The notes under the pieces were generated by a model. That model did not search any database and was not told the DNA's origin. It saw nothing but the letters and a program-made list of their open reading frames with translations. A stretch of 64,000 nt of DNA from a virus, in IMG/VR virus record IMGVR_UViG_3300027833_000013, positions 96,001 to 160,000 of that record; one strand, given 5' to 3'. The translations under genes were made by a program, and so were the position numbers. Positions 23,141-49,415 of the stretch are shown piece by piece (within the stretch, counting starts at the first letter, position 1; each line of letters begins with the position of its first letter).

Positions 23141-24057
23141 AAATTATAGATTATGATATTATATACTTGTCATACGACGAGCCAAACGCAGAAAAAAACT
23201 ATGCAGACCTATTAAGTAAAGTGCCTTGGGCAAAACGGGTGCATGGTGTAGAAGGCAGTGATGCCGCACACAAAGCATGTGCAAACCTAAGTGAAACAGA
23301 TCGTTTTATTACAGTAGATGGCGACAACATTATTAATGCAGAGTTTTTAGGACAAGAACTTGACTTTGATGATCATGCAGATTTAGAACACAGTGTAATT
23401 AGTTGGTGCGGCAGGAATATAATTAACGGATTAATGTACGGCAATGGTGGATTAAAATGTTGGCCAAAGCAGTATGTGTTAGATATGAAAACACATGAAA
23501 ACGCAGAAGCAGACAACCCGCATGCACAAGTTGACTTTTGCTGGGATCTAAAATACATACAGCAAAACAGTTGGTATAGCGATGTACATAATAATGAAAC
23601 TGCACTACAAGCATGGAGGGCAGGGTTCCGTGAAGGTGTTAAGATGTCATTAGATCAAGGAGTGCGACCAACTAAAGAAGCTTTCTTACAAGGCCATTGG
23701 AAAAACTTACATAGGTTGTGGGTGTGGTTAATGGCAGGCGCTGATGTAGAAAATGGACTATGGGCTATTTATGGTGCTCGAGAAGGATTATATATGACAA
23801 TGTGTACAGATTGGGATTATGTACAAGTTAGGGATTTTGAATATTTAAACGAGTACTGGAATAAAACAGTTAGTGTATATATAAATGACGACAACTTGTT
23901 AGAATCAATTCAACGGTTAGGCAACAGTCTTATTGATGAATTAGAAATACCCATTGCTAAGAATCCTTTAGATGCACAACAAAGTAAGTTCTTTAAAGAA
24001 GTTTACCAGAATCCGAGTAGGAATGCACGACAACAGTTTGTGATTGATCCTGAATGA
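23137..24057 (+). CDS. GT-A-like (GT2-related) glycosyltransferase
   Basis: DIIYLSYDEP...VHGVEGSDAAH...RFITVDGD (DxD), YGNGGLK, AWRAGFRE. Confidence 0.65.
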   Translation: MKIIDYDIIYLSYDEPNAEKNYADLLSKVPWAKRVHGVEGSDAAHKACANLSETDRFITVDGDNIINAEFLGQELDFDDHADLEHSVISWCGRNIINGLMYGNGGLKCWPKQYVLDMKTHENAEADNPHAQVDFCWDLKYIQQNSWYSDVHNNETALQAWRAGFREGVKMSLDQGVRPTKEAFLQGHWKNLHRLWVWLMAGADVENGLWAIYGAREGLYMTMCTDWDYVQVRDFEYLNEYWNKTVSVYINDDNLLESIQRLGNSLIDELEIPIAKNPLDAQQSKFFKEVYQNPSRNARQQFVIDPE

Positions 24058-25424
24058 GTAACGAACAACGTATAGAAGAATTAAAACTAAAAAAAGATCT
24101 AATAAATTCTGTTAGTTGTAGTTTCTGTACGGCTAAGTGGTTACAAACAACCCTTATGTTACAAAATGGATATAACCATAGTTGCCATCACCCGGCACCG
24201 CATAAAATTCCATTAGAAGAAATAGAAGCAGATCCCGCAGCCTTGCACAATAGTAAGTTTAAAAAAGAACAACGTGCTATGATGTTAAAAGGTGACCGCC
24301 CTTCGGAATGTGATTACTGTTGGAAGATTGAAGATTTAGACAAAGATTATTTTTCAGACAGACATTATAAAACAGCAGACAACTGGGCATGGGACAGATT
24401 TGAAGATATTGCTAAAAGCAATCCACAAGATAATGTATATCCTAGTTACTTAGAAGTTAGTTTTTCAAATGCTTGTAATTTTGCATGTGCTTACTGCTCG
24501 CCTGAAATTAGCAGTAAGTGGATGGAAGATATAAAACAAAACGGTGAGTATCCGGACGGTGCTCATAACTTAGATTATTTAAAGCAAGCTGGAAAATTTC
24601 CATATGCAAACAACGAAGACAATCCGTATGTAACAGCATTTTGGAAATGGTTTCCTGATGCACTTCCGCATTTAAAAGTTCTACGTATTACAGGCGGCGA
24701 ACCTACAATGAGTAAAGATACTTGGAAGTTATTAGATTACATAATTAATAATCCACAACCTCAATTAGAAATTGCAGTTAATACAAATTTAAATGTTCCA
24801 GCAAAGCTAATAGATAAATTAATATACTATAGCGGCGAGCTTGAAGGTAAACTTAAAAAGTTTGACATATACACAAGTGCTGAAGCAGTTGGTGACCAAA
24901 ATGATTATGTAAGAGATGGGATGAATTACAAAGTTTGGATGACTAATGTACATCGTATGTTGTATGAAACTAATAGTACTGTAGCAATAATGACAACTAT
25001 TAATATTTTAAGTTTGCCTAGCTTTGCTAAATTTATACAAGACGTTATGGAACTTAGAAAAGATTACAATTTAAATTTTGAACACAATAGAATTCCGTTA
25101 AGCATTAACTATCTTAGATGGCCTTTGCATTTACAAACTATACTATTAGATAAAGAACAACGTGTAAAGTACGCTAATGAAATTGAGAGTACATGCGAGT
25201 CTTGGCTCAAATATTACAGTAAAGAAAAATATGCTAGAATTTACTTAGAAGAATTTGATCAAATAAAACGGTTGTGTAACTATCTTAGAAACACAGAACC
25301 AGCTATTCAGTATCGTGGTAACTTTTGCAGATATATACATGCATACGATAAGCGTCGAAACAAAAACTTTAAAGATACTTTTCCAGAGTACTCAACATTA
25401 TTAGAGGATTGGCATGCCAGCTAA
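24054..25424 (+). CDS. Radical SAM enzyme with N-terminal auxiliary Cys/His domain
   Basis: CNFACAYC and ITGGEP; N-terminal FCTAKW..SCHH..ECDYC. Confidence 0.92.
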   Translation: MSNEQRIEELKLKKDLINSVSCSFCTAKWLQTTLMLQNGYNHSCHHPAPHKIPLEEIEADPAALHNSKFKKEQRAMMLKGDRPSECDYCWKIEDLDKDYFSDRHYKTADNWAWDRFEDIAKSNPQDNVYPSYLEVSFSNACNFACAYCSPEISSKWMEDIKQNGEYPDGAHNLDYLKQAGKFPYANNEDNPYVTAFWKWFPDALPHLKVLRITGGEPTMSKDTWKLLDYIINNPQPQLEIAVNTNLNVPAKLIDKLIYYSGELEGKLKKFDIYTSAEAVGDQNDYVRDGMNYKVWMTNVHRMLYETNSTVAIMTTINILSLPSFAKFIQDVMELRKDYNLNFEHNRIPLSINYLRWPLHLQTILLDKEQRVKYANEIESTCESWLKYYSKEKYARIYLEEFDQIKRLCNYLRNTEPAIQYRGNFCRYIHAYDKRRNKNFKDTFPEYSTLLEDWHAS

Positions 25425-26859
25425 AGAAGATGAAACATTGCTACAGTACAGGCAACGTATAATAGATCCAAAGAGTACTAGCTTCTGTGGTGCAAAATGG
25501 TTTAATGCAACTACTTGGTTAGGTAGTGGCACAACTGCTAGTTGTCACCACCCGCCGGCACATCAGATTCCATTAGAAGAAGTAGAAGAAAACTACACAG
25601 CAATTCACAACACTAAACATAAGAAAGAGATGCGTAGGCAAATGCAAACGGGCGAACGCCCTGCAGAGTGCGAGTATTGTTGGAAAATGGAAGATATGAA
25701 AAAAGATGCAGTAAGTGATCGCACCTTTAAAACTATTATCTATACTGACGAAGAACTACAGGCTGCATATGATGCAGACTGGAATGAAAACACAGGTCTT
25801 AAAACGTTTGAAATTGCGTTTGATAGAACTTGTAACTTAGCGTGTTCGTATTGCAATGCTAGTTTTAGTACTACATGGGCAAAAGATATTAATAAGAATG
25901 GTCCTTATGAAAACTTAGTCAGTGATGGCGCAGGTGCGTTTAAACACAATGGTGATTGGGCCGCTCCGTACGATAATGATGCAGACAATCCTTATATACA
26001 GGCATTTTGGAAATGGTGGGATAACGGCCTTGCAGATAGTTTAGATGAACTACGCATTACAGGTGGCGAACCACTAATGAGCGGCAACACTTGGAAACTA
26101 TTTGATTGGTATTCTAAACAGAAATCAGATATGCGATTTGCTATTAACTCGAACTTAATTGCAAAAGAAAGCATTATTAATAAGTTGATTGAAAAAGCCC
26201 AAGGAATTAAAAAGTTCCACATTTATACTAGCTGTGAAGCAGTTGGTGAACAGGCTGAATACATCCGGGACGGGTTAGTTTACGATCAATGGGTAAACAA
26301 CGTAACACGTATTTTAGATGAAACTGACGTAGAGCTACATTGCATGATGACTATTAATAGTTTATGCTTGTTTAGTATTACAGAATTTCTTGATCAAATC
26401 TATACGCTAAAAGAACGTACAGGAACAAAAACGCCGACAGTAAGTTTAAACTTATTACGTTTTCCAAGTTTCCAAAGTCCTTTAGCATTGCCAGTACATC
26501 TTAAAGATTATTGCTACAATAAACTAAATGATTGGTATAACGTAAACAAGCACAAAGCGTTATGGCACGAGCATGAAAAAGCAAGCATCGAACGTTTAAT
26601 AGATTATCTAGTTACTGTAGATGCTCCGCATAGACGCACGAGCAATCCTGTAACACTATGGCGCGACTTTAAAACATTTTATCAGCAATATGATGTACGT
26701 AGAAATAAAAACATAAACGTGTTTCCAAAAATCCTAACAGATTGGATAGAAAGTATTCCTGATACAGATGCAAGTATTACAGAACTTGCAGAAAAAGAAG
26801 GATGGATATTAAATCCTGATAATAAGAATATTGCCAAAGGACTAGCAACATATGACTAA
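25414..26859 (+). CDS. Radical SAM enzyme, paralog of 24054
   Basis: CNLACSYC and ITGGEP; N-terminal FCGAKW..SCHH..ECEYC. Confidence 0.92.
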   Translation: MPAKEDETLLQYRQRIIDPKSTSFCGAKWFNATTWLGSGTTASCHHPPAHQIPLEEVEENYTAIHNTKHKKEMRRQMQTGERPAECEYCWKMEDMKKDAVSDRTFKTIIYTDEELQAAYDADWNENTGLKTFEIAFDRTCNLACSYCNASFSTTWAKDINKNGPYENLVSDGAGAFKHNGDWAAPYDNDADNPYIQAFWKWWDNGLADSLDELRITGGEPLMSGNTWKLFDWYSKQKSDMRFAINSNLIAKESIINKLIEKAQGIKKFHIYTSCEAVGEQAEYIRDGLVYDQWVNNVTRILDETDVELHCMMTINSLCLFSITEFLDQIYTLKERTGTKTPTVSLNLLRFPSFQSPLALPVHLKDYCYNKLNDWYNVNKHKALWHEHEKASIERLIDYLVTVDAPHRRTSNPVTLWRDFKTFYQQYDVRRNKNINVFPKILTDWIESIPDTDASITELAEKEGWILNPDNKNIAKGLATYD

Positions 26860-28105
26860 AGATAATTTTTGTGTAGCACCGTGGATGCATTTACACGTTA
26901 TTAACGATGGCCGGGCATTTCCTTGTTGTCAAACACCTTTAGAAGATAAACATGCATATGGCAATGTAAGAGAAACTGCAATACATGATATCTTAAACAG
27001 TACTAAAGCTAAAGGCATGCGCAAAGATATGTTAACAGGTGTGCCATTACCTTCTAGTTGTGAGCGATGCACATCTAAAGAAAAGCACGGATTTGGTAGT
27101 ATGCGCACTGGCATGAATCAAAAGTGGTTACCTCAAGTACAAGACGAAGTAGACGCAACTCATGCAGACGGAACAATAGACAATCCTGTAATTAAAAATT
27201 GGGATTATAGATTTAGTAACTTTTGTAATCTTGCTTGTCCAACTTGCGGTCCATTGTTCAGTACACAATGGCATGCTGATTATAAAAAATTATTTCCTGA
27301 CTATCCAATGACCGAAAAGGCACTAGTTGATCTAAAAGATGCAGATTTATTTTGGAGTGATTTTTCAAAATATGCTAACCATGCAAAAGAAATTCATATT
27401 GCAGGCGGCGAACCATTTATGATGCCCGAAAATAATAAAGTGTTAACTGCATTAGAACAAGAAGAAAATTACGATATTGCAATACGATATAGTACAAACT
27501 GTACAGTATTAAAGCAAGGAAAAGAAAATATTCTAGACCGATTACAGAAGTTTAGTTATATACATCTTAGTTGTAGTATTGATGCCGCAGGCGATGCTTT
27601 CGAATACATTCGATATAAAGGTAAGTGGGACGTTGTTTTAAATAATTTAAAAGAAATTAGACAAAGTGGCCACAACTATTGGATTCATCCTACAGTAAGT
27701 ATATTAAATATTTTTAGAATTACAGAGTTGCACGAAGAACTTTGGAACGCAGATATTATACCAGCAAAACGAGTACATTATAATGCCGACGGAACTGGTG
27801 CAGAATTTCACATAGAAAACTACTGGGTTGACAGGATGCACTTTAATCCATTATTTGTTCCTGAATATTATAGTATGACAATAATGCCAGCACACCTTAA
27901 AGAGCAGGCCGCCGATAAAATTACAACTTATGGCAAACGACTAGAGAAGGAACATAGTATTCCGTTCCATGGCTGGCAAGCCTTAATTGATTTTATGTAT
28001 CAGGCAGATGACAGTCATTTGTATGATGAATTTTTAAGTAAAACACACAATTTAGATAAATTACGTGGCAATGATTTTTATAAAATTAACAAGGAATTTA
28101 AATAG
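26852..28105 (+). CDS. Radical SAM enzyme with N-terminal twitch/SPASM-like domain
   Basis: CNLACPTC and AGGEP; N-terminal FCVAPW..PCCQ..SCERC. Confidence 0.92.
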   Translation: MTKDNFCVAPWMHLHVINDGRAFPCCQTPLEDKHAYGNVRETAIHDILNSTKAKGMRKDMLTGVPLPSSCERCTSKEKHGFGSMRTGMNQKWLPQVQDEVDATHADGTIDNPVIKNWDYRFSNFCNLACPTCGPLFSTQWHADYKKLFPDYPMTEKALVDLKDADLFWSDFSKYANHAKEIHIAGGEPFMMPENNKVLTALEQEENYDIAIRYSTNCTVLKQGKENILDRLQKFSYIHLSCSIDAAGDAFEYIRYKGKWDVVLNNLKEIRQSGHNYWIHPTVSILNIFRITELHEELWNADIIPAKRVHYNADGTGAEFHIENYWVDRMHFNPLFVPEYYSMTIMPAHLKEQAADKITTYGKRLEKEHSIPFHGWQALIDFMYQADDSHLYDEFLSKTHNLDKLRGNDFYKINKEFK

Positions 28106-29106
28106 TGAGTAAAAAAAGTAAGCTAGAAAAGGTATCTCAATCGCAACTAGCAAAGACCATAGTAACGAACAAGACAATACAGAAAGATAATTACGACAGT
28201 CCTGGTAGCGATTGGGATAATGTTTCCCACTTAGGGGTTGATCATCTAGATACATCAGCAGTTTCACCTTTTCGAGTTAAATCATTTGATGATCTTAGAA
28301 ACTATGGCCCGTGGCAACCACTGCACCTATTAAGAAAACGTGCAGGCGAAACTCGTGAGAATGTATCATTCGATGTGCCCTGGGTACACGAAACTGAAAT
28401 TCCATATCTTAAAGAACAGCCTTGGAAATATAGAATAAATGAATACGGATTTAGAGACGAATGGAAATTTAAAACTAAACGTGCAAACATAGGCTACTTT
28501 GGATGCAGTATGACATATGGTGAAGGCGTCGATACCCCAGATCTATGGAGTACTCATATAACAAATGCGTATAAGTTAACAGGGTTAAACTTTGGTGTAG
28601 GCGGCGCCGGTCCTTTGCGTGTAGCAAGAACATTTGCCGCAGTACAGCAAACAATGAAATTAAAGTATGCTATAATAATGCTACCACAAATCTCAAGAGT
28701 AGAACTATGGCAATACAACAATTATCAGCAACCAAAACAGCATCCTAGATTACATACTATAAACTTAATTCCTAATTTTCCACCTAGTCCTACAGATTTT
28801 ACGGGAGGAGATGACGTGTATAATGATTACTTTAAAGTTATGACAGATGAACAATCAATTAGTCAGTGTGTACAAGCGTGTAATTGGATAACTCAAACAG
28901 CAAGAGCAAACAAGACTCGGGTACTATTCTGTTCTTGGGATCCGTTTAGTTTATGGGCTATGCACAATGCAGGAGTTCCTAATTTGCATAATAAAATGTT
29001 TAAAAGGCTAGACTTAGGTAGAGATCAAATGCACCCGGGCCCGGAGTCTAATTTACAATTTAGTAAAAGTATAAGAAGGTGGATAGATGCTAACCCTTGG
29101 CTTTAG
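28105..29106 (+). CDS. SGNH/GDSL-like hydrolase or acyltransferase
   Basis: FGCSMTYG (block I), NFGVGG (block II), C-terminal RDQMHPG (DxxH); GTG start. Confidence 0.6.
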   Translation: MSKKSKLEKVSQSQLAKTIVTNKTIQKDNYDSPGSDWDNVSHLGVDHLDTSAVSPFRVKSFDDLRNYGPWQPLHLLRKRAGETRENVSFDVPWVHETEIPYLKEQPWKYRINEYGFRDEWKFKTKRANIGYFGCSMTYGEGVDTPDLWSTHITNAYKLTGLNFGVGGAGPLRVARTFAAVQQTMKLKYAIIMLPQISRVELWQYNNYQQPKQHPRLHTINLIPNFPPSPTDFTGGDDVYNDYFKVMTDEQSISQCVQACNWITQTARANKTRVLFCSWDPFSLWAMHNAGVPNLHNKMFKRLDLGRDQMHPGPESNLQFSKSIRRWIDANPWL

Positions 29107-30034
29107 AAATATACACGGCGTTAGTACTAGTATTAATTTACTGCCAGATAACACCGAAACATCATTAGTATGGCAATCTGCATTAGACACTTTATTAGAA
29201 ACGCACAATGATAAAATATTTCAAAAGAACTTTAGTCTATTAGGACATCCTACACATAATAGATCTAAACAGCACATGATAAATGATCTAGAACGAAGTG
29301 TTAACATTGTAAACATACATACAGAATACGAAATTGACGAAGACTTTTCTACATTTGATCAAGAAACATTAAACAGATTGCATCATCATTTTGAAATATT
29401 ACAAGGACAACTTTGGAACCCCAGTTCATTTTTAACTACAGCGTCTGGAGAAGTGCGGTGTGCAATATGTTATTTAAATCATTGCTGTCATGAACTAGAA
29501 GCATATTATGATTCGTATGAAAAGGAATATACTAACTATAACGGTTATTTTTACTATAACTTGTTAGGTATAACAGATAGAACTGACATGCCGCTAGGAA
29601 TAAAAAAGCAATTTACTACTGACATAACTGACGGCATGGTATATTTACATTATGCTCAAACAGGTAAAACTTGGTACGAAGCATACTTAGATAACGATTT
29701 AGAAATAGACCCTAGCAATATATCAGAACATAGGGTTATCACAGGCGAATTTAATTTATACTCTGGACCAGGGTTTAGTTTTCCAACAGACAGTAATTTT
29801 ACATCATGGTTAGAATCAAAAAATGTAGATCCTAATGATTCTGATTTAGCATTAGGATATGCACCAGTTGCAACAGTAGATGTACCATATACTGAACTAC
29901 AAGAAATATTAAAAGAATACGATGACTTTCATAGTATTGAATTTAATGGTAAAAAAATTGAATATAACTATAGACATACCGACCTAGAGTATGTTATAAT
30001 GTTAGAACATATGTGGAGTAAATGGAATGTATGA
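29087..30034 (+). CDS. Hypothetical protein with paired His motifs (315 aa)
   Basis: LNRLHHHFE and LNHCCHELE segments; overlaps both neighbours. Confidence 0.65.
   Translation: MLTLGFRNIHGVSTSINLLPDNTETSLVWQSALDTLLETHNDKIFQKNFSLLGHPTHNRSKQHMINDLERSVNIVNIHTEYEIDEDFSTFDQETLNRLHHHFEILQGQLWNPSSFLTTASGEVRCAICYLNHCCHELEAYYDSYEKEYTNYNGYFYYNLLGITDRTDMPLGIKKQFTTDITDGMVYLHYAQTGKTWYEAYLDNDLEIDPSNISEHRVITGEFNLYSGPGFSFPTDSNFTSWLESKNVDPNDSDLALGYAPVATVDVPYTELQEILKEYDDFHSIEFNGKKIEYNYRHTDLEYVIMLEHMWSKWNV
29971..30000 (+). promoter_or_regulatory. Internal sigma70-like promoter
   Basis: TAGACA (29971-76), 18 bp, extended -10 TGtTATAAT (29992-30000); GGAG RBS before ATG 30027. Confidence 0.55.
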
Positions 30035-30707
30035 CATTATTTTTATAAGCTATAATGAACCAGAAGCTGATGCTAACTGGGAACGTCTTACTGAAACATA
30101 CTTCTGGGCTAAACGTGTACACGGTGTAACTGGAATTCATCAAGCCCACATACAAGGTGCTAAACTAGCTAACACAGAAATGGTTTGGTTTGTTGATGCA
30201 GATGCAATAGTAATGGATGACTTTGACTTTAGTTACGAACCTGATAAAGATAACCTAGACACAGTGCATGTATGGCGTAGTCAAAACCCGGTTAACGGAT
30301 TAGTGTACGGCAACGGCGGAATAAAACTATTTCCTCGTCAGCTTACTATTGACATGGATTTGTCACAACCTGATATGACAACTAGTATAACGCACAAATT
30401 TAAAGTAATGCACGAAATTGCAAACATTACAGCATTTAATACCAACCCTTTCAGTACATGGCGTAGTGCATTTAGAGAATGTGCAAAATTAAGCAGTAAA
30501 GTAATTGATCGGCAAAAAAATGAAGAAACAGATAGTAGACTGGATACGTGGTGTACCGTTGGGCGTGAAAACTTATTTGGTGACTATGCTATTCGTGGTT
30601 CCATTGCTGGGCGTAAGTATGGCGCTACTCATCAAGGCGATACTGCCGCTTTAAGATTAGTAAACAATTATGATTGGCTAAAGGAGCAATTTGATGCAGA
30701 CGTTTGA
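30027..30707 (+). CDS. GT-A-like glycosyltransferase, paralog of 23137
   Basis: YDIIFISYNEP..RVHGVTGIHQAH..WFVDAD (DxD), YGNGGIK, WRSAFRE. Confidence 0.7.
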   Translation: MYDIIFISYNEPEADANWERLTETYFWAKRVHGVTGIHQAHIQGAKLANTEMVWFVDADAIVMDDFDFSYEPDKDNLDTVHVWRSQNPVNGLVYGNGGIKLFPRQLTIDMDLSQPDMTTSITHKFKVMHEIANITAFNTNPFSTWRSAFRECAKLSSKVIDRQKNEETDSRLDTWCTVGRENLFGDYAIRGSIAGRKYGATHQGDTAALRLVNNYDWLKEQFDADV

Positions 30708-34316: not shown

Positions 34317-34320
34317 TTAG

Positions 34321-34328
34321 GATAAGTA
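34321..34328 (+). promoter_or_regulatory. Late-like promoter variant GATAAGTA followed by N5-ATG (leaderless)
   Basis: In a short intergenic gap; ATG at 34334 with no clear SD. Confidence 0.45.
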
Positions 34329-34333
34329 TTAAT

Positions 34334-39197: not shown

Positions 39198-39198
39198 T

Positions 39199-40736: not shown

Positions 40737-41410
40737 TGCAGTACGGAACTTATAGCCATGAGTTAAATGTTGACCAATATAATACTAACGCTCAAGCATT
40801 ATTTAAAAGCAACAATATAAAATATACTGGTGCAAAAAACTTTAACTATTTTATTGATGTCCCTAATGATGTAAATAAAACTTTGTCTAATTATTTTTCA
40901 GATAAGTTAGGACACTTTGATTGGGCGTTTCAGTACTTTCATAGCGGAGAACCTGCAGGTTTACATACAGATTATACAGTAGTACCTTGGGACGATAAAG
41001 TAGAATGTCGTGTTGATGTTGGTGTAATAGTTCCTTTAGAATGGAATTGTAAACAACCGTATACTATAAATTATAATAGAGTTGAAGAACAGCCTCGCAA
41101 AGTAGTATATCGTAAAGGAGAAATGCGATACACTGACAACGACGAAATAGTAGAATATAGAACAGACAGTATATTAGATGACGAAGTACTAAAATACAAT
41201 CCAAAAGGTACAGAATATTATAAGCTATATCAAGACTTAAAAGTGCATAGTGTTTATGAATGGAAGCTAGGTACAGCAATGGTATTTGATACTAGCAGGT
41301 GGCATAGTAGTAGTTGGTTTCTAACAGATAACAAATTGCCTGATGTTTCAACAGAATACAAACGAGCTATCATTGGATTTGGATCAACCGATGTACAAAA
41401 AGGAAAATAA
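40736..41410 (+). CDS. 2OG-Fe(II) dioxygenase-like protein
   Basis: HTD...FDTSRWHSS...KR (HxD...H...R pattern). Confidence 0.6.
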   Translation: MQYGTYSHELNVDQYNTNAQALFKSNNIKYTGAKNFNYFIDVPNDVNKTLSNYFSDKLGHFDWAFQYFHSGEPAGLHTDYTVVPWDDKVECRVDVGVIVPLEWNCKQPYTINYNRVEEQPRKVVYRKGEMRYTDNDEIVEYRTDSILDDEVLKYNPKGTEYYKLYQDLKVHSVYEWKLGTAMVFDTSRWHSSSWFLTDNKLPDVSTEYKRAIIGFGSTDVQKGK

Positions 41411-42597
41411 TGTTTACAGCAATTAACCACAGTCGTAAAGAAGAATTTAGCGTGGTGTGGGACCTTGGCCGCAGATGCACTTATGCATGTAGTTATTGCG
41501 GCCCACACCACAGTAACAAAACCAGCCCATTAGCTGATATAGACAAACTTAAACATACACTAGACGGAGTTGTTGAATATGCACAGCTAATGGACTTGTA
41601 TAGAAAAGAACCACTTACTCTAGATATAGCTTATACAGGCGGCGAACCAACAATACATCCTGCATTTTTTGAATTTGTAAGATATGCAAAAAATACATAT
41701 CCGTTTGTAAGATCTAATATCACAACAAACGGATGCTATACAGAGAAAAAATGTAGAGAAATAATGGATTGTGTAAACAGTACTACAGTAAGTTACCATG
41801 CAGAAGGAACTCCAGAACAAAAAAAATTAGTAATAGCAAACATAAAGTTAATGCACGAAAGTGATTATAATTTTAGAATTAATCATATGTTCCACAAAGA
41901 TTACTTTGACGAATGTATTGAATTAGCAGAATGGTTTGACGAACTAGGTATAAAATACACTAGTAGGCCTATAGGTGATAGTAACAAAAAAGAAGATATA
42001 GCCACCGGCCAAGCACACGAGTATACTCCTAAACAATTAGAATATTTTAAGAATCAATGGACACAGAAACCAAAGCCAAAGACAAATTTAATACCTACAA
42101 CGACTGTAATACAAATGGCAGAAAAGAAAACATCGCTTGAAACTATTGGTAGACCTTGTTGTAATGGTAAATGTTTAAGCATTAAAGTTGATGATAAATG
42201 GACTAAAGATTTTAGAGTACCAACAACTAATTTTAAAGGCTGGAACTGTATGGTTAACTGGGACTTCCTTTTTATCAATAGTGAACTAGACGGGGTTTGG
42301 CATCATCAAACTTGTCAAGTTAACATGGATGGTCAAATTGGGCCAATTGGAAAAGCAAGCGAGTTTGGCCCAATAATTGATAAGTTACGTACAACACTAC
42401 GTAGCGGCAAAATGCCTGTTATTAGATGTCCCAAGATGCATTGTGGTTGCGGCCTTTGTAGTCCTAAAGCATTAAATGATGAAGATGCTAAAGAAATTTT
42501 TGATAGTCGTACTAAGCATTTAGAGCCAGTATTCCAAGATGGCATAAAAGATATTAGCAATGATAAAACTGTATATAGAATGTTTAAGGAAATTTAA
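41410..42597 (+). CDS. Radical SAM enzyme with Cys-rich C-terminus
   Basis: CTYACSYC, TGGEPT, PCCNGKC, FKGWNC..TC..CPKMHCGCGLC. Confidence 0.92.
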   Translation: MFTAINHSRKEEFSVVWDLGRRCTYACSYCGPHHSNKTSPLADIDKLKHTLDGVVEYAQLMDLYRKEPLTLDIAYTGGEPTIHPAFFEFVRYAKNTYPFVRSNITTNGCYTEKKCREIMDCVNSTTVSYHAEGTPEQKKLVIANIKLMHESDYNFRINHMFHKDYFDECIELAEWFDELGIKYTSRPIGDSNKKEDIATGQAHEYTPKQLEYFKNQWTQKPKPKTNLIPTTTVIQMAEKKTSLETIGRPCCNGKCLSIKVDDKWTKDFRVPTTNFKGWNCMVNWDFLFINSELDGVWHHQTCQVNMDGQIGPIGKASEFGPIIDKLRTTLRSGKMPVIRCPKMHCGCGLCSPKALNDEDAKEIFDSRTKHLEPVFQDGIKDISNDKTVYRMFKEI

Positions 42598-43260
42598 ATG
42601 AAATTGCTGCCTCTAGAAAAACAAATACGAAGTAGAAAAACATATTATAGTTTTTTAGATAAACCTGTGTCACAGGATAAGATAGATATATTACTTAGAA
42701 ATGCAGACGGAGCTACTCCTGCATTGTGCGATCAGTATGACTATAGAGTAGATATATGGCCTGATCACCTTAAACAGATTTTATTCAAAACATCTATATT
42801 AGATATAACACAGGAAGAAAGTGCTGTACATAAAAAGGCAATAAAGCTCTTTGAACAAACTGGATCTTGGAAAAGCCTTAAACAGAAATATGGTGATAGG
42901 ATATGTGTAAATCCTCAAGTGTTTGCCCCAGTAGTTCTTGCGTTTTCTCAACCACACGACCCCAAACATGATTTCATGCACGAGGCAACTACTAATGCAA
43001 TGGCATTTCAAATGTGGCATTTAGTCCAATTAAGCCAAGATTTAGGTTTAGATCATGCATTTTGTAGAGGATTCGATACCCGTGCTTTAAAAGAACAAAT
43101 ACAAGTAAGTAGGTATAAAGGTCCTAACGTAGGTTACTACTTTCCGCATGTGTTCTTATGTATAGGTTACGGTGATCTTGCTAAACACAATGTCCCACGC
43201 CCTAAGCCCGGCAAAGGTATATTAAACACCCTAAGGTTTAAAGCAAATGAAAATAGATAA
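42598..43260 (+). CDS. Nitroreductase-like flavoprotein
   Basis: IRSRKTYYSFLDKPV..I..LL, APVVL, LGLDHAF, LCIGY. Confidence 0.6.
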   Translation: MKLLPLEKQIRSRKTYYSFLDKPVSQDKIDILLRNADGATPALCDQYDYRVDIWPDHLKQILFKTSILDITQEESAVHKKAIKLFEQTGSWKSLKQKYGDRICVNPQVFAPVVLAFSQPHDPKHDFMHEATTNAMAFQMWHLVQLSQDLGLDHAFCRGFDTRALKEQIQVSRYKGPNVGYYFPHVFLCIGYGDLAKHNVPRPKPGKGILNTLRFKANENR

Positions 43261-43870
43261 TGTAACAGCAAGTTCTATAGCAGAGCAATGTCAGCGTAAC
43301 TGGAATCAAAACAAAAAAGTTAGTGATGAACACATTAACGAAATTATTCAAGTTGCAACTAATATGCCAACCAAGCAAAATAGAGAATATTATCAATTAG
43401 TAGTAAGTACTGATCTAGAGTTAAATAGACAACTATACTCTGTTGCTATAGACGATAGCAACCTAGGATTTAAAAAACAATTTCACAGGAATGGACAAGT
43501 TCTTGCACCATTATTATTACTATGGTTTTCTACAAAACCTATTGAGGATAAATTTAATGATGACTTTACAGAACAATTTCAAATCTCAATAGGTATTTCA
43601 TCAGGTGCGGCAGCATTACATGCAACAAGTTTAGGATATAAAACTGGGTTCTGTTGTTGTATGAAATGGAAAACTGCCCGTCAGTTATTGAAAGCAAAAG
43701 GAGTATACCTTTCAAGTCAATTAGTTGGTCATGGATTGGCGCTAGGTATTGGTTTCCCTAGTACTGATCATAGAGGAGATGTTGTAGTTGATAAAAAGAT
43801 TAGATTAACATTAGAAAATGACGGCATTGAATGTGGCATTGAAAAAGATATTATGGTACATAAGGTATGA
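43247..43870 (+). CDS. Nitroreductase-like flavoprotein
   Basis: CQRNW..KVSDEHI..PTKQN, APLLL, ATSLGYKTGF, LGIGFP. Confidence 0.65.
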   Translation: MKIDNVTASSIAEQCQRNWNQNKKVSDEHINEIIQVATNMPTKQNREYYQLVVSTDLELNRQLYSVAIDDSNLGFKKQFHRNGQVLAPLLLLWFSTKPIEDKFNDDFTEQFQISIGISSGAAALHATSLGYKTGFCCCMKWKTARQLLKAKGVYLSSQLVGHGLALGIGFPSTDHRGDVVVDKKIRLTLENDGIECGIEKDIMVHKV

Positions 43871-44922
43871 GTTGGTTTGATACTACACAAATTGGAAGAA
43901 TACAATTAGAACTTACTAATTATTGTAATGCGTTCTGTCCTCAGTGTGATAGGGCAGAATTAATTTCTCAATATGATAAATGGACTAAACGTGCAACTAA
44001 TAACCTTAATAATAATCATATTACTTTACAAAATGTAAAAGACTGGTTTGGACGTTATAAATGGGATAATTTACAGTTTATAAACTACTGCGGTAATGTT
44101 GACGAGCCTACAATTAATCCTGAGATAATCGAAATAACAAAATGGTTTAATAATATTTTAGGAGACCGAAATATTGCTATTAATATAGCATCTAATGGCG
44201 GAACTAGGAACGAAGCATTTTGGCAGGAACTAGGAGAACTAAGTGCTGCCAATCCTAGAATTCGTGTAACATTTGGGATTGATGGATTAGAAGATACAAA
44301 TCATATATATAGAAAAAATGTTAACTGGGATATACTACAAAAAAACTTTAGAGCGTATATTGGCGCAGGCGGAAATGCAAGTTGGCAGTTTATTGTATTT
44401 GATCATAACAAGCATCAATTAGAAGAAATAAAACAACGATTAGATAGTGAAGGTTTTAAAGGATTAAAGTTATTACAATCTAATAGGTTAGATATACCAG
44501 GACAAAAAGAAGTAAACATTGTTAAAAAAGTTAAAGTTCCTAAGTGGTACGATACAACTAATGGTGATAACATGGCTGGCAAGTCTGTTAAAAATCTTAG
44601 AGATAAGGGAGAAACATTATCTTGTGTTAAGTGTCCTGCTAAACTTAAATCAAAAAATACAGCATTCCATGAAGAACACGGTAACATATATGTTAGTGCA
44701 TTGGGATACGTAACCCCTTGCTGTTGGATGGGGAACCCAACAGAATTAATTAAACTATGGGATAGTAATCCTAACACAGATCCTAAGTTACATAATTTAT
44801 ATAATACTAATTTAGATAATATTATAAATGGTAACTGGTGGACACATATTGATAGTCAAATGCAGGACTATAAATTATGTGTAATGAAATGTAAAGATCT
44901 ACAAGGAGATACGCACATATGA
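43867..44922 (+). CDS. Radical SAM enzyme, paralog of 32515
   Basis: CNAFCPQC, CGNVDEP, FGIDGLEDTNHIYR, PCCW..CVMKC. Confidence 0.9.
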   Translation: MSWFDTTQIGRIQLELTNYCNAFCPQCDRAELISQYDKWTKRATNNLNNNHITLQNVKDWFGRYKWDNLQFINYCGNVDEPTINPEIIEITKWFNNILGDRNIAINIASNGGTRNEAFWQELGELSAANPRIRVTFGIDGLEDTNHIYRKNVNWDILQKNFRAYIGAGGNASWQFIVFDHNKHQLEEIKQRLDSEGFKGLKLLQSNRLDIPGQKEVNIVKKVKVPKWYDTTNGDNMAGKSVKNLRDKGETLSCVKCPAKLKSKNTAFHEEHGNIYVSALGYVTPCCWMGNPTELIKLWDSNPNTDPKLHNLYNTNLDNIINGNWWTHIDSQMQDYKLCVMKCKDLQGDTHI

Positions 44923-45671
44923 AATATCCGACGTATTATTTTAACAAAAATTTTAAAAATGTTGCAGTTAAGTTATCAGGAGGAACCGATAGTAGTTTAC
45001 TTTATTATAAAATATGTAAATTTTACAAAGGCACAAATACCAACATATTTCCAATTACATTAGTATCTGATAAAAAGCCATTTTATAGAGATAGCACAAC
45101 TCGTATTACATTAATAGTAAAGGGGTTAACAGGAGTATCTCCTACACAACATATCTTTGTTGAAGGGCCACATTCAGAATACGAACAACTATTAAATAAT
45201 GCTGTTTTAAATTTTCATAAACAAAATAGATTAGATATAGTATACACTGGAATAACAATTAATCCACCATTAGAAAAACTTTCTAAAAGTTTAATGCGAT
45301 GGAATTATGAAAAATACGACAGTATGGAATATAATTATCCTTCAGTTAATCATTACAAAGATATAACAAAAGGATTTAATCATATAGAAAAAAGAGATAG
45401 CAAAAGAGATATAGAGTTAAATACAGAATCTGTTAGTATAGTTAATGGCACTACAGATTTATTATGTAATAATCCCTTTAGTGAGTGTAACAAAAAAGCT
45501 GTAGCTAACGAATATGCAAAACTAGATCTAATGGAAAGTTTATTTCCATTTACAATTTCTTGTGCAGATTATACAGACGAAACATATACAACTTTAGACG
45601 AACATCAACACTGTGAAAACAACTGTTTTCCTTGTATGGAACGTTATTGGGCATTTAGGAGATTTGTATAG
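44919..45671 (+). CDS. QueC-like PP-loop ATP pyrophosphatase, paralog of 31872
   Basis: LSGGTDS, YTGITINP, LFPFTISC..HCENNCFPCMER. Confidence 0.7.
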   Translation: MKYPTYYFNKNFKNVAVKLSGGTDSSLLYYKICKFYKGTNTNIFPITLVSDKKPFYRDSTTRITLIVKGLTGVSPTQHIFVEGPHSEYEQLLNNAVLNFHKQNRLDIVYTGITINPPLEKLSKSLMRWNYEKYDSMEYNYPSVNHYKDITKGFNHIEKRDSKRDIELNTESVSIVNGTTDLLCNNPFSECNKKAVANEYAKLDLMESLFPFTISCADYTDETYTTLDEHQHCENNCFPCMERYWAFRRFV

Positions 45672-46198: not shown

Positions 46199-46199
46199 A

Positions 46200-47243
46200 A
46201 TGGAATATAACGGAAATGAAGTTTTAAGAGTTACAAATCCACATATATGCATTTCGTGGTTAATGGGTAATTGGTGTAATTTTAAATGTGCATATTGTTT
46301 TGATCATGCTAATTTAGGAACGCACTATCCGCCTGTAGTAGATGATACACTTATAAAAAATATTACTCATTTAGTAAAAGAAATACGTAAAGGCGATCCT
46401 GACAGACAAATACGATGGAACCTTACAGGAGGAGAGCCTACTGCACAAAAAGGTTTTGGAAAACTATTATCAGTTATGGCAGCCGCAGATGATAACAGTT
46501 ATGTGAGTGTAGTTACAAACGGAACAAGACCTATTGCTTGGTGGGAAAAAAATATACAGTATGTGCATCGGCTTATTGTTTCAGTACATCCTGAATCTGA
46601 TATTCAGCATACTATTAAATTACTAAAAGCAGTTAACGGAAAATGTCGCACTGTAACATTTAGTGTAATGCTAGGATCTCAAAATTTTGATGATGCGATT
46701 GCAAAATATAAATCTTTAATGTTTACAACTGCACCAGAGTACGGTCTTTGTAATGTAGTAATTAATACACTTAGGCGCACATCAAGAAATGATGCATTTA
46801 CTCCTTTAACACAGGAGCAACACGGCATAATAAAAAATTTAGTTGGAGAATATCTTGCTAAGAAAGATCGAAATACAACACCTCTAATAGAACAGCTACC
46901 AGAAGACCTTGTGCGTCGGACATTGATAACACCGCATACTATAGAAACTGAAGAAACCGGCGTTGAACGATTTTTTCCTGTGTCACAAAAAAATTCTTTA
47001 AAAGGAACATTTTCTGGCTATAAATGTTTAGCTCCGCAAGAATGGATTGAAATTGATGAGCGTGGAGAACTGGGCAGGTTATCGTGTAAGGCTCGTGTTG
47101 GTCCTAAGACTAATATTTTTGATCTAAATTTTGTTAAAGAATATAAAGCTCCAACACATGAGATGACTTGTCGTACTTGGATGCCTGAGTGTAACTGTAT
47201 TGGATTATTAGAAACTGGAAAATATTTACCATTGACTAACTAA
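46200..47243 (+). CDS. Radical SAM enzyme with C-terminal Cys cluster
   Basis: CNFKCAYC, TGGEPT, FSGYKC..SC..CRTWMPECNC. Likely start MEYNG at 46200. Confidence 0.9.
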   Translation: MEYNGNEVLRVTNPHICISWLMGNWCNFKCAYCFDHANLGTHYPPVVDDTLIKNITHLVKEIRKGDPDRQIRWNLTGGEPTAQKGFGKLLSVMAAADDNSYVSVVTNGTRPIAWWEKNIQYVHRLIVSVHPESDIQHTIKLLKAVNGKCRTVTFSVMLGSQNFDDAIAKYKSLMFTTAPEYGLCNVVINTLRRTSRNDAFTPLTQEQHGIIKNLVGEYLAKKDRNTTPLIEQLPEDLVRRTLITPHTIETEETGVERFFPVSQKNSLKGTFSGYKCLAPQEWIEIDERGELGRLSCKARVGPKTNIFDLNFVKEYKAPTHEMTCRTWMPECNCIGLLETGKYLPLTN

Positions 47244-47260
47244 ATAGAAGGTGCTATAAT
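47232..47260 (+). promoter_or_regulatory. Sigma70-type promoter, probably leaderless
   Basis: TTGACT (47232-37), 17 bp, TGcTATAAT (-10 at 47255-60); ATG 5 nt later at 47266. Confidence 0.75.
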
Positions 47261-47265
47261 AAATT

Positions 47266-48381
47266 ATGAATGAAGATTTAAAATGGTCAAATTATGATTT
47301 TACTAAAATCCCTCTTAATGAGATTGTCTCTGTGGGGCAACGCACTCTGCTTTATCGCGATCTATTTACTGTATCATGGCTCCTTGGAAGATTCTGTAAC
47401 TACAAATGTTCCTACTGTTGGCCTTATGCAAGATCAGATCGTAAAGACCACAGACCTACCGAGTTATGCTTGCGTACAGTGGATGAAATTAAACGTCAGG
47501 CCAGAGACAACGGCTTCAATTCTTTCCACTTCTCCTTGTCAGGAGGAGAGCCTACTTTCCATCCTGGATACTTGGATATATTAAAGCATCTTGCTGACGA
47601 TGTTGATAACACTAATTATACTAGTGTGCATATGACAACAAACATGTCACGTAATATAAAGTGGCACGAGGAATATGTAGAAGCAGTTAAGCCGTTTCAC
47701 CGTGCTAGTATAACTGCAAGTTTACACACAGAGCATGTAAACAGCATTGAGAAGATGCAAGACTTTGCAGATAAATTAATTTTCTGTCAAGAGCATGATG
47801 TACAGACTACTATTAATATGGTAATGGTACCAGACTGGTTTGAACGTGATTGGGAAAATGCATTGTTCTTTCACGAGCAAGGCATAAACGTAACACTAAA
47901 GCCTCAAAGTGACCCTACAGCAAGCCGAGTAGTAGACGGGTATACAAAGGACAACTTAAAACGTTTGTACAACGGTATGCCGCAACGTGCGTATACAGAA
48001 ACTATGCGTAAATGGGCAGGTCGTCCAAAGCCTACTTTTGAAATGCCTACAGATGTTGAAGGTAAAAACGATGCTAGTGTGCCTTGGCATATGCAAGTAG
48101 AGTTAAAAGATAAAGACGGTAAAAAGTACTACATGGACCAAGCAGAACGTTTTAATGCCTTTAATTTTAATAATTTCGAAGGATGGGCATGCAATGCCGG
48201 TTACAGCGGACTTATAATACGCGAGCCTGACGGTTCGGTAAAACGTAGTTATAGTTGCCATGATGCGCCACTAGGCAACATCGAAACAGGGTTCGAACTG
48301 TTTAAGACACCTAAAACTTGTATCACTAAGAGTTGCGTAAGTTCGGCTGATTCAAAGATACCTAAACGTAAAATTTTGTAA
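47266..48381 (+). CDS. Radical SAM enzyme with C-terminal Cys cluster
   Basis: CNYKCSYC, SGGEPT, FEGWACNAG..SC..CITKSC. Confidence 0.92.
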   Translation: MNEDLKWSNYDFTKIPLNEIVSVGQRTLLYRDLFTVSWLLGRFCNYKCSYCWPYARSDRKDHRPTELCLRTVDEIKRQARDNGFNSFHFSLSGGEPTFHPGYLDILKHLADDVDNTNYTSVHMTTNMSRNIKWHEEYVEAVKPFHRASITASLHTEHVNSIEKMQDFADKLIFCQEHDVQTTINMVMVPDWFERDWENALFFHEQGINVTLKPQSDPTASRVVDGYTKDNLKRLYNGMPQRAYTETMRKWAGRPKPTFEMPTDVEGKNDASVPWHMQVELKDKDGKKYYMDQAERFNAFNFNNFEGWACNAGYSGLIIREPDGSVKRSYSCHDAPLGNIETGFELFKTPKTCITKSCVSSADSKIPKRKIL

Positions 48382-49360
48382 TCATTATTTCTTCTGCTAC
48401 GTGACATTGTTCTTGTAAGCAAGTTGTTGTAGTGTCCTTAAATAAAGGAATGTTGTCTACAAAAATATTACCAATAGTTCCTTCATTACTGCATACACCG
48501 TGTTTCATCCTGCCGTCGGCTTCGATAAGTAATTTACGTTTTACAACCTCACACTGCCATCCTTTAAACTTATTCATTCCGTTTGCAATAAACTGTGATA
48601 TAGGCATCTTTTCAACACCGTGTTTAGTTTCTAGTAATACGTCAGGCAAATAATCTTGTGAATTATCTTCAAGTTGATTTAAATAAGAAAGTTCTTCTTT
48701 AGTAAAGTATCCATCATTGCCGATAGATTGCTTATACCCTTTTAAATACCTACTTGACTCATATGGTTGATTAAATGTTTTTGTTTCTTTATTGTATAAA
48801 GGAAATACCGGTAACTTTACAGTTGGGATATTGTGCTTTAATAACTCGTGTTCTAGTTGTTCTACTTTATGAAATAAGTTTTTTACAAGCATTGCTCTAA
48901 TTTCAACATCGCCGCCTGCCGCTTTAATCATTACAGCAAGGTTTACAATAGTCTCTATATCAGCAGACTCGGGATGAAAACTTATTTTCATTTCTAAATT
49001 TTTAAATGAGAATGTATCTCTACATTTTTCATACATCTTTATAGGCATGCTTCCGTTAGTAAACATCATAATATGAAAATTGTTATTAGACAGATATTTT
49101 AACCATTTATCAATATTAGGTATCAAGAATGGCTCACCTCCTGTAATAACAATCATTGTTTCTTTATCTAATGGAATTGCATTACGTAATTTTTTAGAAG
49201 CGTTAATTAATGCATCAATTGACGGAATTTTCTTCTTATTAATTGCTATATGATTGCTAGGACTACAATAGCTACAATCGTAATTACACATGTCAACAGG
49301 ACGCCATTGTACCGTGTAATCAGTATTCCATTTTTCTAGATATAATTTAGAGAAGTTCAT
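48362..49360 (-). CDS. Radical SAM enzyme (the only reverse-strand gene in the island)
   Basis: CNYDCSYC, TGGEP, FKGWQC..VC..CLQEQC. Start is MNFSK (49360) or MCMNF (49366). Confidence 0.9.
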   Translation of the reverse strand: MNFSKLYLEKWNTDYTVQWRPVDMCNYDCSYCSPSNHIAINKKKIPSIDALINASKKLRNAIPLDKETMIVITGGEPFLIPNIDKWLKYLSNNNFHIMMFTNGSMPIKMYEKCRDTFSFKNLEMKISFHPESADIETIVNLAVMIKAAGGDVEIRAMLVKNLFHKVEQLEHELLKHNIPTVKLPVFPLYNKETKTFNQPYESSRYLKGYKQSIGNDGYFTKEELSYLNQLEDNSQDYLPDVLLETKHGVEKMPISQFIANGMNKFKGWQCEVVKRKLLIEADGRMKHGVCSNEGTIGNIFVDNIPLFKDTTTTCLQEQCHVAEEIMITKFYV

Positions 49361-49410: not shown

Positions 49411-49415
49411 TTAGT

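What the first reader, a model, noticed from the sequence alone, without database searches (positions are those of the whole stretch)
24054..49360. Twelve radical-SAM enzymes in four distinct architectures in one phage locus
All 12 carry an intact CxxxCxxC motif. Type A has an N-terminal CxxPW..CC..CxxC auxiliary domain (26852, 34334, 35746). Type A' has an N-terminal CxAKW..CHH..CxYC domain (24054, 25414). Type B has CGNxx(D/E)P instead of GGEP plus C-terminal PCCW..CxxKC (32515, 43867). Type C has a C-terminal F-x-G-(W/Y)-x-C...C-x4/6-C cluster (37091, 41410, 46200, 47266, 48362). None is recognisable as NrdG, QueE, MoaA or an anaerobic sulfatase maturase. Known: twitch/SPASM radical SAMs include sugar dehydrogenases/epimerases (BtrN, NeoN) and peptide cross-linkers. 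Inference: a paralog-expanded toolkit doing radical chemistry on sugars or proteins.
Basis: partly seen in the sequence, partly recalled or inferred. Interest (0 to 1): 0.85.

Follow-up and report, generated by a model that had tools for sequence, protein, structure and literature searches.

The report
Phage radical-SAM glycan-tailoring island
A marine jumbo phage carries, behind its tail-fibre genes, twelve intact iron-sulfur "radical SAM" enzymes coupled to four sugar transferases; the core is shared with predatory Bdellovibrio-type bacteria and a culturable Ralstonia phage, and most likely builds and edits a sugar structure whose identity and target are still unknown.

Summary
All 12 radical-SAM genes are intact, carry the stated motifs and are under purifying selection (dN/dS 0.02-0.29). 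They form two domain orders (twitch cluster N- or C-terminal), not four. Five belong to the catalogued but uncharacterised family NF033640. They are not phage-only and not recent paralogues: 22-38% identical to each other, but 57-98% to orthologues in other phages. A core (GT-A + methyltransferase-like + r32515/r34334/r47266) recurs in most of 80 viral loci and in 11 of 251 Bdellovibrionota genomes, mostly among glycan genes. A second module (four GT-A + r24054) is syntenic in the cultured Ralstonia phage RsoM2USA. Three natural fusions join the r24054 type to three different glycosyltransferases. Best reading: a cytoplasmic pathway that builds and radically edits a glycan (about 0.7), most likely on virion proteins (0.42). 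The island starts at a conserved host sigma-70 promoter (42/46 relatives), unlike the flanking late structural genes, which keeps host-envelope and DNA targets open. A marine T4-like genome with twelve radical-SAM genes was published in 2017; the product was not. This scan found the same island many times on other DNA.

The parts
20452..20480 (+). sigma-70-type promoter opening the island (TTGACA-17-TATACT)
   Evidence: a sigma-70 match precedes 42/46 homologues of the first gene
20505..20840 (+). 111-aa conserved first gene, unknown function; module 1
   Evidence: 58/80 loci; RsoM2USA ORF354
20837..21685 (+). GT8/glycogenin-like GT-A with DxD; module 1
   Evidence: profile A7 hits glycogenin E 4e-6; RsoM2USA ORF353
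21678..22517 (+). second GT8-like GT-A; module 1
   Evidence: RsoM2USA ORF352
22514..23140 (+). unknown conserved-position gene; module 1
   Evidence: positional in RsoM2USA
23137..24057 (+). GT-A glycosyltransferase (DGD motif), same family as 30027
   Evidence: RsoM2USA ORF350, 46%
24054..25424 (+). radical SAM, N-terminal twitch (A'), NF033640; fused to GTs elsewhere
   Evidence: RsoM2USA ORF349
25414..26859 (+). radical SAM, N-terminal twitch (A'), NF033640; paired with 24054 in 75/80 loci
   Evidence: RsoM2USA ORF202, 56%
26852..28105 (+). radical SAM, N-terminal twitch (A), NF033640, variable
28105..29106 (+). SGNH-like O-acyl transferase/esterase (GCSF ... DxxH), by motif only
29971..30000 (+). 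internal sigma-70-type promoter before GT 30027
   Evidence: 33/67 homologues
30027..30707 (+). GT-A glycosyltransferase; core module 2
   Evidence: model pLDDT 93; GT-A fold, Z 11.7, rmsd 2.6, 135 aligned to B4GALNT1
30691..31659 (+). class I methyltransferase-like protein; core module 2
   Evidence: Atlas neighbours with Methyltransf_31/PCMT at 0.86-0.94, a lead only; conserved GxW motif
31872..32522 (+). QueC/PP-loop-like ATPase
   Evidence: PF06508 E 9e-6
32515..33579 (+). radical SAM, C-terminal twitch (B); core module 2
33576..34316 (+). SGNH-like protein (GCSY motif), by motif only
   Evidence: sequence
34334..35749 (+). radical SAM, N-terminal twitch (A), NF033640; most conserved core enzyme (83-98% in 80 viral loci)
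35746..37107 (+). radical SAM, N-terminal twitch (A), NF033640; frequent, shared with Bdellovibrionota
37091..37984 (+). radical SAM, C-terminal twitch (C), variable
38664..40736 (+). methyltransferase-like, PLP fold-I enzyme, methyltransferase-like
41410..42597 (+). radical SAM, C-terminal twitch (C); frequent, shared with Bdellovibrionota
42598..43870 (+). two nitroreductase-like flavoproteins
43867..44922 (+). radical SAM, C-terminal twitch (B), variable
44919..45671 (+). second QueC/PP-loop-like protein (weak)
46200..47243 (+). radical SAM, C-terminal twitch (C), rare
47232..47260 (+). sigma-70-type promoter before 47266 (TTGACT-17-TATAAT)
   Evidence: 23/31 homologues
47266..48381 (+). 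radical SAM, C-terminal twitch (C); core module 2
48362..49360 (-). radical SAM, C-terminal twitch (C), rare, opposite strand
49413..56337 (+). tail of the island: Asp/Arg-hydroxylase-like, aminotransferase class IV, Trp-halogenase-like, GMP-reductase-like (by sequence), AMP-binding, SGNH-like
62064..62483 (-). IscU Fe-S scaffold, likely supports cluster supply
   Evidence: 74-81% to annotated IscU

Best explanation
The twelve enzymes are the editing arm of a soluble, phage-encoded glycosylation pathway. SHOWN: intact, selected twitch-type radical-SAM proteins in one tightly overlapping gene run with four GT-A proteins, started by a host sigma-70 promoter and organised as two conserved modules plus swappable extras. 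INFERRED: (1) the GT8-like and GT2-like enzymes transfer NDP-sugars onto a protein acceptor, most likely fibre/baseplate or capsid proteins; (2) each radical-SAM enzyme cleaves SAM at the CxxxCxxC cluster, abstracts a C-H hydrogen from a sugar (free NDP-sugar or glycan-bound) and uses its four-Cys twitch cluster for electron transfer, giving oxidation, epimerisation, dehydration or deamination as in BtrN, NeoN, BlsE or DesII; (3) methyltransferases, SGNH proteins, a PLP enzyme and oxygenases add further groups; (4) the core makes a shared scaffold and the variable enzymes give strain-specific decoration. A sugar substrate is about 0.7 likely; the virion as acceptor about 0.42.
For: GT-A fold of 30027/23137 and glycogenin-like 20837/21678. 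Three natural fusions of the r24054 type to three different GT types: to the island's own GT domain (P0125, 315 + 390 bits), to GT7C (P0136, E 4e-11, next to a UDP-sugar dehydrogenase) and to GT2 (P0142, E 6e-23, among GT2 genes). Core co-occurrence in phage loci: r32515 66/68, GT 61/68, MTase 45/68 upstream and r47266 35/47 downstream of r34334. In Bdellovibrionota the same 11/251 genomes hold r34334 and r47266 matches, and 10 of these 11 are among the 13 with this GT family; neighbours include GT2, GT4, UDP-glucose dehydrogenase, sugar dehydratases and PMT_2. RsoM2USA has module 1 in order directly behind a fibre-like gene and its r25414 orthologue among three SGNH-like genes and a carbamoyltransferase. 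Vibrio phage K566 interleaves four N-twitch enzymes with GT-like genes (GT call by motif). No catalytic gene has a membrane segment. The island lies between fibre-like genes. Mycobacteriophage virion glycosylation is the precedent (Freeman 2023, as cited in PMC12619734).
Against: No activity, product or acceptor is shown. The r34334 model does not pick a substrate class: SkfB, BlsE, viperin and SuiB tie at Z 10.8-11.3. The island uses sigma-70 promoters (42/46) while flanking structural genes use ATAAATA (32/35, 7/8), so it is probably not a dedicated late unit as a virion-finishing system might be. The three GT fusions are one contig each. Bdellovibrionota make no virions, so their acceptor must differ. 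Many r24054-type genes in Bdellovibrionota stand without a recognised GT neighbour. Published SDS-PAGE/MS of RsoM2USA virions reported no glycosylation, though it did not look for it.
Confidence: 0.42

Rival explanations
1. Same sugar chemistry, but the acceptor is the host envelope: early enzymes alter lipid-linked O-antigen or LPS core on the cytoplasmic side to block competing phages.
For: Conserved sigma-70 promoters imply pre-late expression. This is the published reading of glycosyltransferases in the host recognition cluster (PMC7029224). Bdellovibrionota copies lie in surface-glycan loci. A sigma-70 promoter also precedes the sugar-kinase/epimerase-like operon at contig 21283.
Against: No flippase, polymerase or membrane GT in the island. 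The module is conserved across phages of unrelated hosts (marine relatives, Ralstonia) whose O-antigens differ. It stays next to fibre genes.
Confidence: 0.2
2. DNA hypermodification: GTs glycosylate a modified base and the radical-SAM, PLP and methyl enzymes elaborate it.
For: Early/middle promoters fit DNA-modification genes. Phage GT, PLP and radical-SAM enzymes do modify DNA bases (own knowledge; Pyle 2024 as cited in PMC12619734). RsoM2USA has a second, divergent thymidylate-synthase-like gene (85 bits).
Against: A complete 382-kb relative with the core has only a canonical ThyA. The core is chromosomal in Bdellovibrionota among envelope-glycan genes. The island is in the structural region, not the replication region.
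Confidence: 0.12
3. The enzymes act directly on proteins or peptides (thioether or C-C cross-links, epimerisation), for example on the Cys-rich fibre-region proteins; the GTs are a separate function.
For: Fold neighbours include SkfB, CteB (5wgg) and SuiB. The contig has three 318-320-aa proteins with 32-33 Cys.
Against: No N-terminal leader-binding domain (the N-terminus is the twitch domain or is short) and only one auxiliary cluster motif. No intergenic room for a precursor peptide (gaps -20 to +52). GT fusions and strict GT co-occurrence.
Confidence: 0.12
4. A biosynthetic cluster for a diffusible glycoside, aminocyclitol or nucleoside-like small molecule or cofactor.
For: Halogenase, aminotransferase, AMP-binding enzyme, nitroreductases and PP-loop proteins in the island. 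Known twitch enzymes act in aminoglycoside and nucleoside antibiotic pathways (own knowledge).
Against: These genes are not conserved across relatives (145-type loci lack the halogenase). No exporter. The minimal versions keep only GTs, a methyltransferase or SGNH, and one or two radical-SAM genes (L221, RsoM2USA).
Confidence: 0.09
5. Generic auxiliary metabolic genes or decaying cargo with no joint pathway.
For: High turnover of gene content: 556 sequences fall into 137 clusters. This is the reading in PMC5332604 (Fe-S-related metabolism).
Against: dN/dS 0.02-0.29 for all 12, fixed order of the core, fusions, joint presence in bacteria.
Confidence: 0.05

Closest known systems
NCBIfam NF033640 N_Twi_rSAM (twitch domain-containing radical SAM protein)
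   Same: 24054, 25414, 26852, 34334, 35746 score 302-422 bits against a cut-off of 170; N-terminal twitch plus radical-SAM barrel.
   Different: The family has no assigned function; the other five scanned fall far below the cut-off (28-55 bits) and carry the twitch domain at the C-terminus; the GT coupling is not part of the family definition.
TARA_ERS488813_N000010, marine T4-like genome with 12 radical-SAM genes and an Fe-S carrier (Nishimura 2017, PMC5332604)
   Same: Same count, marine T4-like phage, Fe-S assembly gene nearby (IscU here).
   Different: Read there as Fe-S-related auxiliary metabolism; no subfamilies, GT link or bacterial counterpart described. Whether it is the same lineage was not tested.
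Host recognition cluster (HRC) of pelagimyophages and cyanomyophages (Zaragoza-Solas 2020, PMC7029224)
   Same: Large variable island behind the long baseplate/fibre genes, rich in GT8 and with radical-SAM cassettes gained gradually.
   Different: This phage is PA5oct/RaK2-like by capsid (66-70%); the island is not bounded by the neck gene, has a conserved GT-rSAM core, and is dominated by radical-SAM genes.
Sugar-acting radical-SAM enzymes BtrN, NeoN, BlsE, DesII
   Same: One four-Cys auxiliary motif; BlsE is a tied top fold match (Z 11.1, rmsd 4.0, 220 aligned).
   Different: 16% identity or less; twitch domain moved to the N-terminus in five; substrates not shown; the known enzymes act in antibiotic pathways.
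Virion glycosylation by virus-encoded GT-A enzymes (mycobacteriophages; PBCV-1 A064R; STIV A197)
   Same: Soluble GT-A proteins encoded near structural genes; A197 and A064R are among the fold matches of 30027 (Z 10.4 and 8.6).
   Different: None is known to use radical-SAM editing; acceptor here not shown.

Membership tests
Radical SAM superfamily | CxxxCxxC motif in a PF04055 domain | tested here: met
   12/12 motif, 12/12 PF04055 match, 10 over cut-off
Radical SAM superfamily | Partial TIM-barrel fold | tested here: met
   r34334 model pLDDT 91; the top 40 VIA matches are radical-SAM enzymes. One of 12 modelled.
Radical SAM superfamily | Reductive SAM cleavage by a [4Fe-4S] cluster | not testable with these tools
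   needs anaerobic reconstitution
NF033640 N_Twi_rSAM | Score over 170 bits | tested here: met
   five proteins, 302-422 bits
NF033640 N_Twi_rSAM (types B and C) | Score over 170 bits and N-terminal twitch | tested here: not met
   28-55 bits for five scanned; auxiliary Cys are C-terminal; 47266 and 48362 not scanned against NCBIfam
SPASM/twitch subclass | Conserved auxiliary Cys set with SPASM-domain homology | tested here: met
   PF13186 on 26852, 34334 (over cut-off), 35746, 43867 (weak); Cys conservation and N/C cross-hit. Type C rests on motif only.
MoaA / NrdG / QueE / viperin / named SPASM maturases | NCBIfam curated cut-off | tested here: not met
   best scores 22-52 bits against cut-offs of 131-650 (10 of 12 scanned)
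RiPP maturase cluster | Adjacent precursor peptide | tested here: inconclusive
   no intergenic room for one; three small ORFs lack Cys-rich cores; a distant precursor is not excluded
GT-A glycosyltransferases (23137, 30027, 20837, 21678) | GT-A fold with DxD motif | tested here: met
   nucleotidyltransferases share the fold and score close (IspD Z 10.8)
Virion glycosylation system | Glycan covalently bound to virion proteins | not testable with these tools
   needs glycoproteomics
Host recognition cluster (HRC) | Variable GT-rich island behind the long baseplate/fibre genes | tested here: met
Host recognition cluster (HRC) | Bounded by VrlC and neck gene gp14 | tested here: not met
   the island is followed by a minus-strand Mtd_N fibre gene and non-structural genes; the neck-like gene lies far away on the contig
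Phage DNA glycosyl-hypermodification | Source of a hydroxymethyl-pyrimidine handle (TET/JBP, hydroxymethylase, hmU kinase) | tested here: inconclusive
   own contig only 47% complete; TET and HMUDK searches rang nowhere, controls included; complete relative has only ThyA, RsoM2USA has a second divergent TS-like gene

The most novel reading that the evidence does not exclude
Jumbo phages and predatory Bdellovibrionota, both of which grow inside Gram-negative prey, share an undescribed protein-glycosylation pathway in which up to a dozen or more radical-SAM enzymes, including a circularly rearranged N-terminal-twitch family, rebuild sugars oxygen-independently into a strain-variable coat on the attachment apparatus.
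Probability: 0.3. Interest if true: 0.85.

Novelty: new variant of a known kind. Interest (0 to 1): 0.6.

Why it matters
NF033640 and the B and C subfamilies are abundant (4,821 relatives of 47266 alone) and have no assigned reaction. Linking them to specific glycosyltransferases gives candidate substrates. The eight-gene version in the cultured phage RsoM2USA makes the long-open question of what the GT-rich islands of large aquatic phages do (virion coat, host surface or DNA) directly testable. If the glycan reading holds, it is a large source of new radical carbohydrate chemistry.

Tried and rejected
Housekeeping assignments (MoaA, NrdG, QueE, viperin, named maturases): far below cut-offs. 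Recent in-place duplication: rejected by identities. Phage-only distribution: rejected; G001 is a real bacterial chromosome (DnaG, RpoD and GatB-like neighbours read from sequence), whereas the 'Dojkabacteria' hits are mis-binned phage contigs, and the Bacteroidota MAG hit is probably one too (92% identity, phage gene order; 0 of the other 300 Bacteroidota). Direction of transfer: phage copies form one clade in all three core trees (100/100, 96/100, 99) with Bdellovibrionota drawn as a grade, but the outgroups are too distant to root and no one-clade test was run, so no donor is claimed. Bdellovibrionota as the host: not needed, since RsoM2USA infects Ralstonia; host unknown. Fold search did not resolve substrate class. 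PDB sequence searches for 23137, 30691 and 28105 families found nothing significant; 30691 did not align to 38664. No close viral relative of 26852 by pattern search; 57% orthologues were used for dN/dS, near saturation. Metatranscriptome contigs from two studies cover pieces of several island genes at 90-100% identity, but they are small shares, contigs only and may be DNA, so expression is not claimed. TET and hmU-kinase searches were uninformative. No tRNAs in the window. No paper linking Bdellovibrio, radical SAM and GTs was found in the library; the Grell 2015 review was not held, so twitch-enzyme chemistry is cited from own knowledge. No complex prediction was run.

Full report
Setting. 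The window is 96,001-160,000 of a 169,459-base linear viral contig, 47% complete by CheckV, so the genome is probably about 350 kb. Its major capsid protein is 66-70% identical to those of PA5oct-, RaK2- and BF-like jumbo myophages. The twelve genes lie in a 36-kb run (20505-56337) of overlapping or abutting ORFs, gaps -20 to +52, between baseplate/fibre-like genes and a minus-strand Mtd_N fibre gene. An IscU gene lies at 62064-62483.

Observation. They are the only PF04055 matches in the contig. Five (24054, 25414, 26852, 34334, 35746) pass the cut-off of NCBIfam NF033640, so types A and A' are one catalogued family; none of the ten scanned reaches a housekeeping or named maturase cut-off. 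Types B and C carry their auxiliary Cys at the C-terminus; an HMM of the N-terminal twitch domains hits 33 of 253 such C-termini and no shuffles. There are therefore two domain orders and four subfamilies. An AlphaFold model of 34334 (pLDDT 91) is a radical-SAM barrel with no close solved relative; SkfB, BlsE, viperin and SuiB tie at Z 10.8-11.3. dN/dS against orthologues is 0.02-0.15 for ten genes, 0.15-0.20 for 26852 and 0.29 for 46200 (one pair).

Not a recent expansion. The twelve are 22-38% identical to each other but 57-98% to orthologues in other phages. Across about 110 loci, 556 distinct radical-SAM sequences fall into 137 clusters at 40% identity; three clusters dominate (34334, 32515, 47266), and six window clusters include bacterial members. 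Five related phage records hold 7-21 radical-SAM genes. The picture is a fixed core with swappable extras.

Two modules. Module 1: 20505, two GT8/glycogenin-like proteins (20837, 21678; E 4e-6 to glycogenin), 22514, GT 23137 and the A' pair 24054/25414, which co-occur in 75 of 80 loci. Module 2: GT 30027, methyltransferase-like 30691 (a lead), 32515, 34334 and 47266; with enough flank, 66/68 loci have 32515, 61/68 a GT and 45/68 the methyltransferase upstream of 34334, and 35/47 have 47266 within 10 kb downstream. These loci were picked by the anchor gene, so the counts show linkage, not frequency among phages. 30027 folds as GT-A with a DxD motif (pLDDT 93; Z 11.7, rmsd 2.6, 135 aligned to B4GALNT1; Foldseek top hits are all glycosyltransferases), and 23137 is its homologue.

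Outside marine phages. The cultured Ralstonia phage RsoM2USA has ORFs 354-347 matching 20505, 20837, 21678, (22514 by position), 23137, 24054, 30027 and 30691 in order, directly behind a fibre-like gene, and a 25414 orthologue (56%) among three SGNH-like genes and a carbamoyltransferase. In Bdellovibrionota the same 11 of 251 genomes match 34334 and 47266, and 10 of them are among the 13 with the GT family. Their clusters include GT2, GT4, UDP-glucose dehydrogenase, sugar dehydratases and PMT_2 genes, although one core sits among housekeeping genes. One genome holds 23 NF033640 genes over the cut-off. Genome G096 repeats the RsoM2USA order GT-GT-methyltransferase-A'. None of 300 other Bacteroidota genomes matched; other phyla were not sampled. 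Phage copies form one clade in each core tree, but the roots are unreliable.

Fusions. Among 22 longer relatives of 24054, one is fused to the island's own GT domain (P0125), one to a GT7C-type domain (P0136) and one to GT2 (P0142); four are tandem A'-A' proteins, two of them 24054-25414 type. Each GT fusion is on one contig and translates as called; P0136 and P0142 lie among other glycan genes. This is the most direct sequence evidence for a sugar substrate.

Timing. The island opens with TTGACA-17-TATACT (20452-20480); a sigma-70 match precedes 42/46 homologues of 20505, 33/67 of 30027 and 23/31 of 47266, against 0-1 for 23137, 24054, 25414 and 34334. Flanking structural genes instead carry ATAAATA (18044: 32/35; 56334: 7/8). 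The island is thus probably transcribed by host holoenzyme before late genes, though late read-through from 19516 is possible as no terminator was found there. This differs from several earlier scan notes that call the island late, and it keeps host-envelope and DNA targets alive.

Mechanism. Most likely the GT-A enzymes build a glycan and the radical-SAM enzymes edit its sugars by hydrogen abstraction, with the twitch cluster handling electrons as in BtrN-type enzymes (own knowledge), while methyltransferases, SGNH proteins, a PLP enzyme and oxygenases add groups. A sugar substrate is about 0.7 likely. For the acceptor: virion proteins 0.42 (position, soluble enzymes, glycogenin-like GTs, conservation across phages with unrelated hosts), host envelope 0.20, DNA 0.12; direct protein cross-linking 0.12, small molecule 0.09, no joint pathway 0.05. 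No step of the chemistry is shown.

Prior knowledge and novelty. Twelve radical-SAM genes with an Fe-S carrier in a marine T4-like genome were reported in 2017 (PMC5332604); GT-rich islands with radical-SAM cassettes behind tail genes in 2020 (PMC7029224); the N-twitch family is catalogued. I found no paper giving a function or describing the GT-rSAM core, its fusions or its Bdellovibrionota counterpart. This scan noted the same island, the Bdellovibrionota link and the Ralstonia phage on many other genomes; I had reached the Ralstonia and Bdellovibrionota links before reading those notes. Verdict: real, a new variant of a known kind, interest 0.6.

Noticed in passing
window:158-13537: 4,459-aa ORF in the window, the end of a 4,933-aa VrlC-like baseplate/fibre protein that starts at contig 94736.
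   Followed up: no
window:62064-62483 (-): IscU, 74-81% identical to phage-borne IscU; preceded by the late-type ATAAATA motif, unlike the sigma-70-driven island it may serve.
   Followed up: partly
L229:15051-18734 (contig 35051-38734, -): Carbamoyltransferase, SGNH-like and GT9-like block inside the fibre region; homologous carbamoyltransferases sit next to radical-SAM genes in RsoM2USA, L155/L157 and Bdellovibrionota L091/L254.
   Followed up: partly
contig 39569-40531, 40543-41499, 62897-63853 (L229-L231): Three paralogous 318-320-aa proteins with 32-33 Cys and over 50 Gly among fibre genes; no Pfam hit for the one scanned; possible metal-binding fibre tips or radical-SAM substrates.
   Followed up: partly
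L233 (contig 161576-169292, -): QueE-like, PRTase-like, HIT-like and TGT-like genes by sequence: a likely 7-deazaguanine DNA-modification locus; the three I scanned had no Pfam hit at E 0.01.
   Followed up: partly
L088-L090 (G001:C1:745-775 kb): About 15 NF033640 genes in a 30-kb array in a Bdellovibrionia chromosome, 23 over the cut-off genome-wide.
   Followed up: partly
L097-L100, L087 (G003): Contigs filed as 'Candidatus Dojkabacteria' are jumbo-phage contigs of this lineage, with the core enzymes scattered rather than clustered.
   Followed up: partly
L040:1285-4953, L046:3928-7104 and about 40 similar: In many relatives the 23137 and 30027 GT domains are fused into 440-1,220-aa multi-domain proteins with further unassigned domains.
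   Followed up: partly
L002:14989-21731 (Vibrio phage K566/K567): Cultured vibriophages carry four N-twitch radical-SAM genes interleaved with GT-like genes, a second possible test system.
   Followed up: partly
MG752970.1:7739-8398: RsoM2USA has a second, divergent thymidylate-synthase-like gene (85 bits) that could be a pyrimidine hydroxymethylase.
   Followed up: no
L234:24231-35114 (-): RsoM2USA has a run of about 13 paralogous 190-220-aa genes starting MKLxEI just downstream of the GT module.
   Followed up: no
L038, L039, L153, L207: Matches to 34334 or 25414 span 400-600 more bases than the gene, suggesting insertions or a downstream partial duplicate.
   Followed up: no
P0126-P0141: About 15 proteins of 817-934 aa carry a 24054-type radical-SAM domain behind a 345-456-aa N-terminal region with no Pfam match.
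   Followed up: partly
window:50580-50837: 85-aa ORF with the only predicted membrane segment in the island.
   Followed up: no
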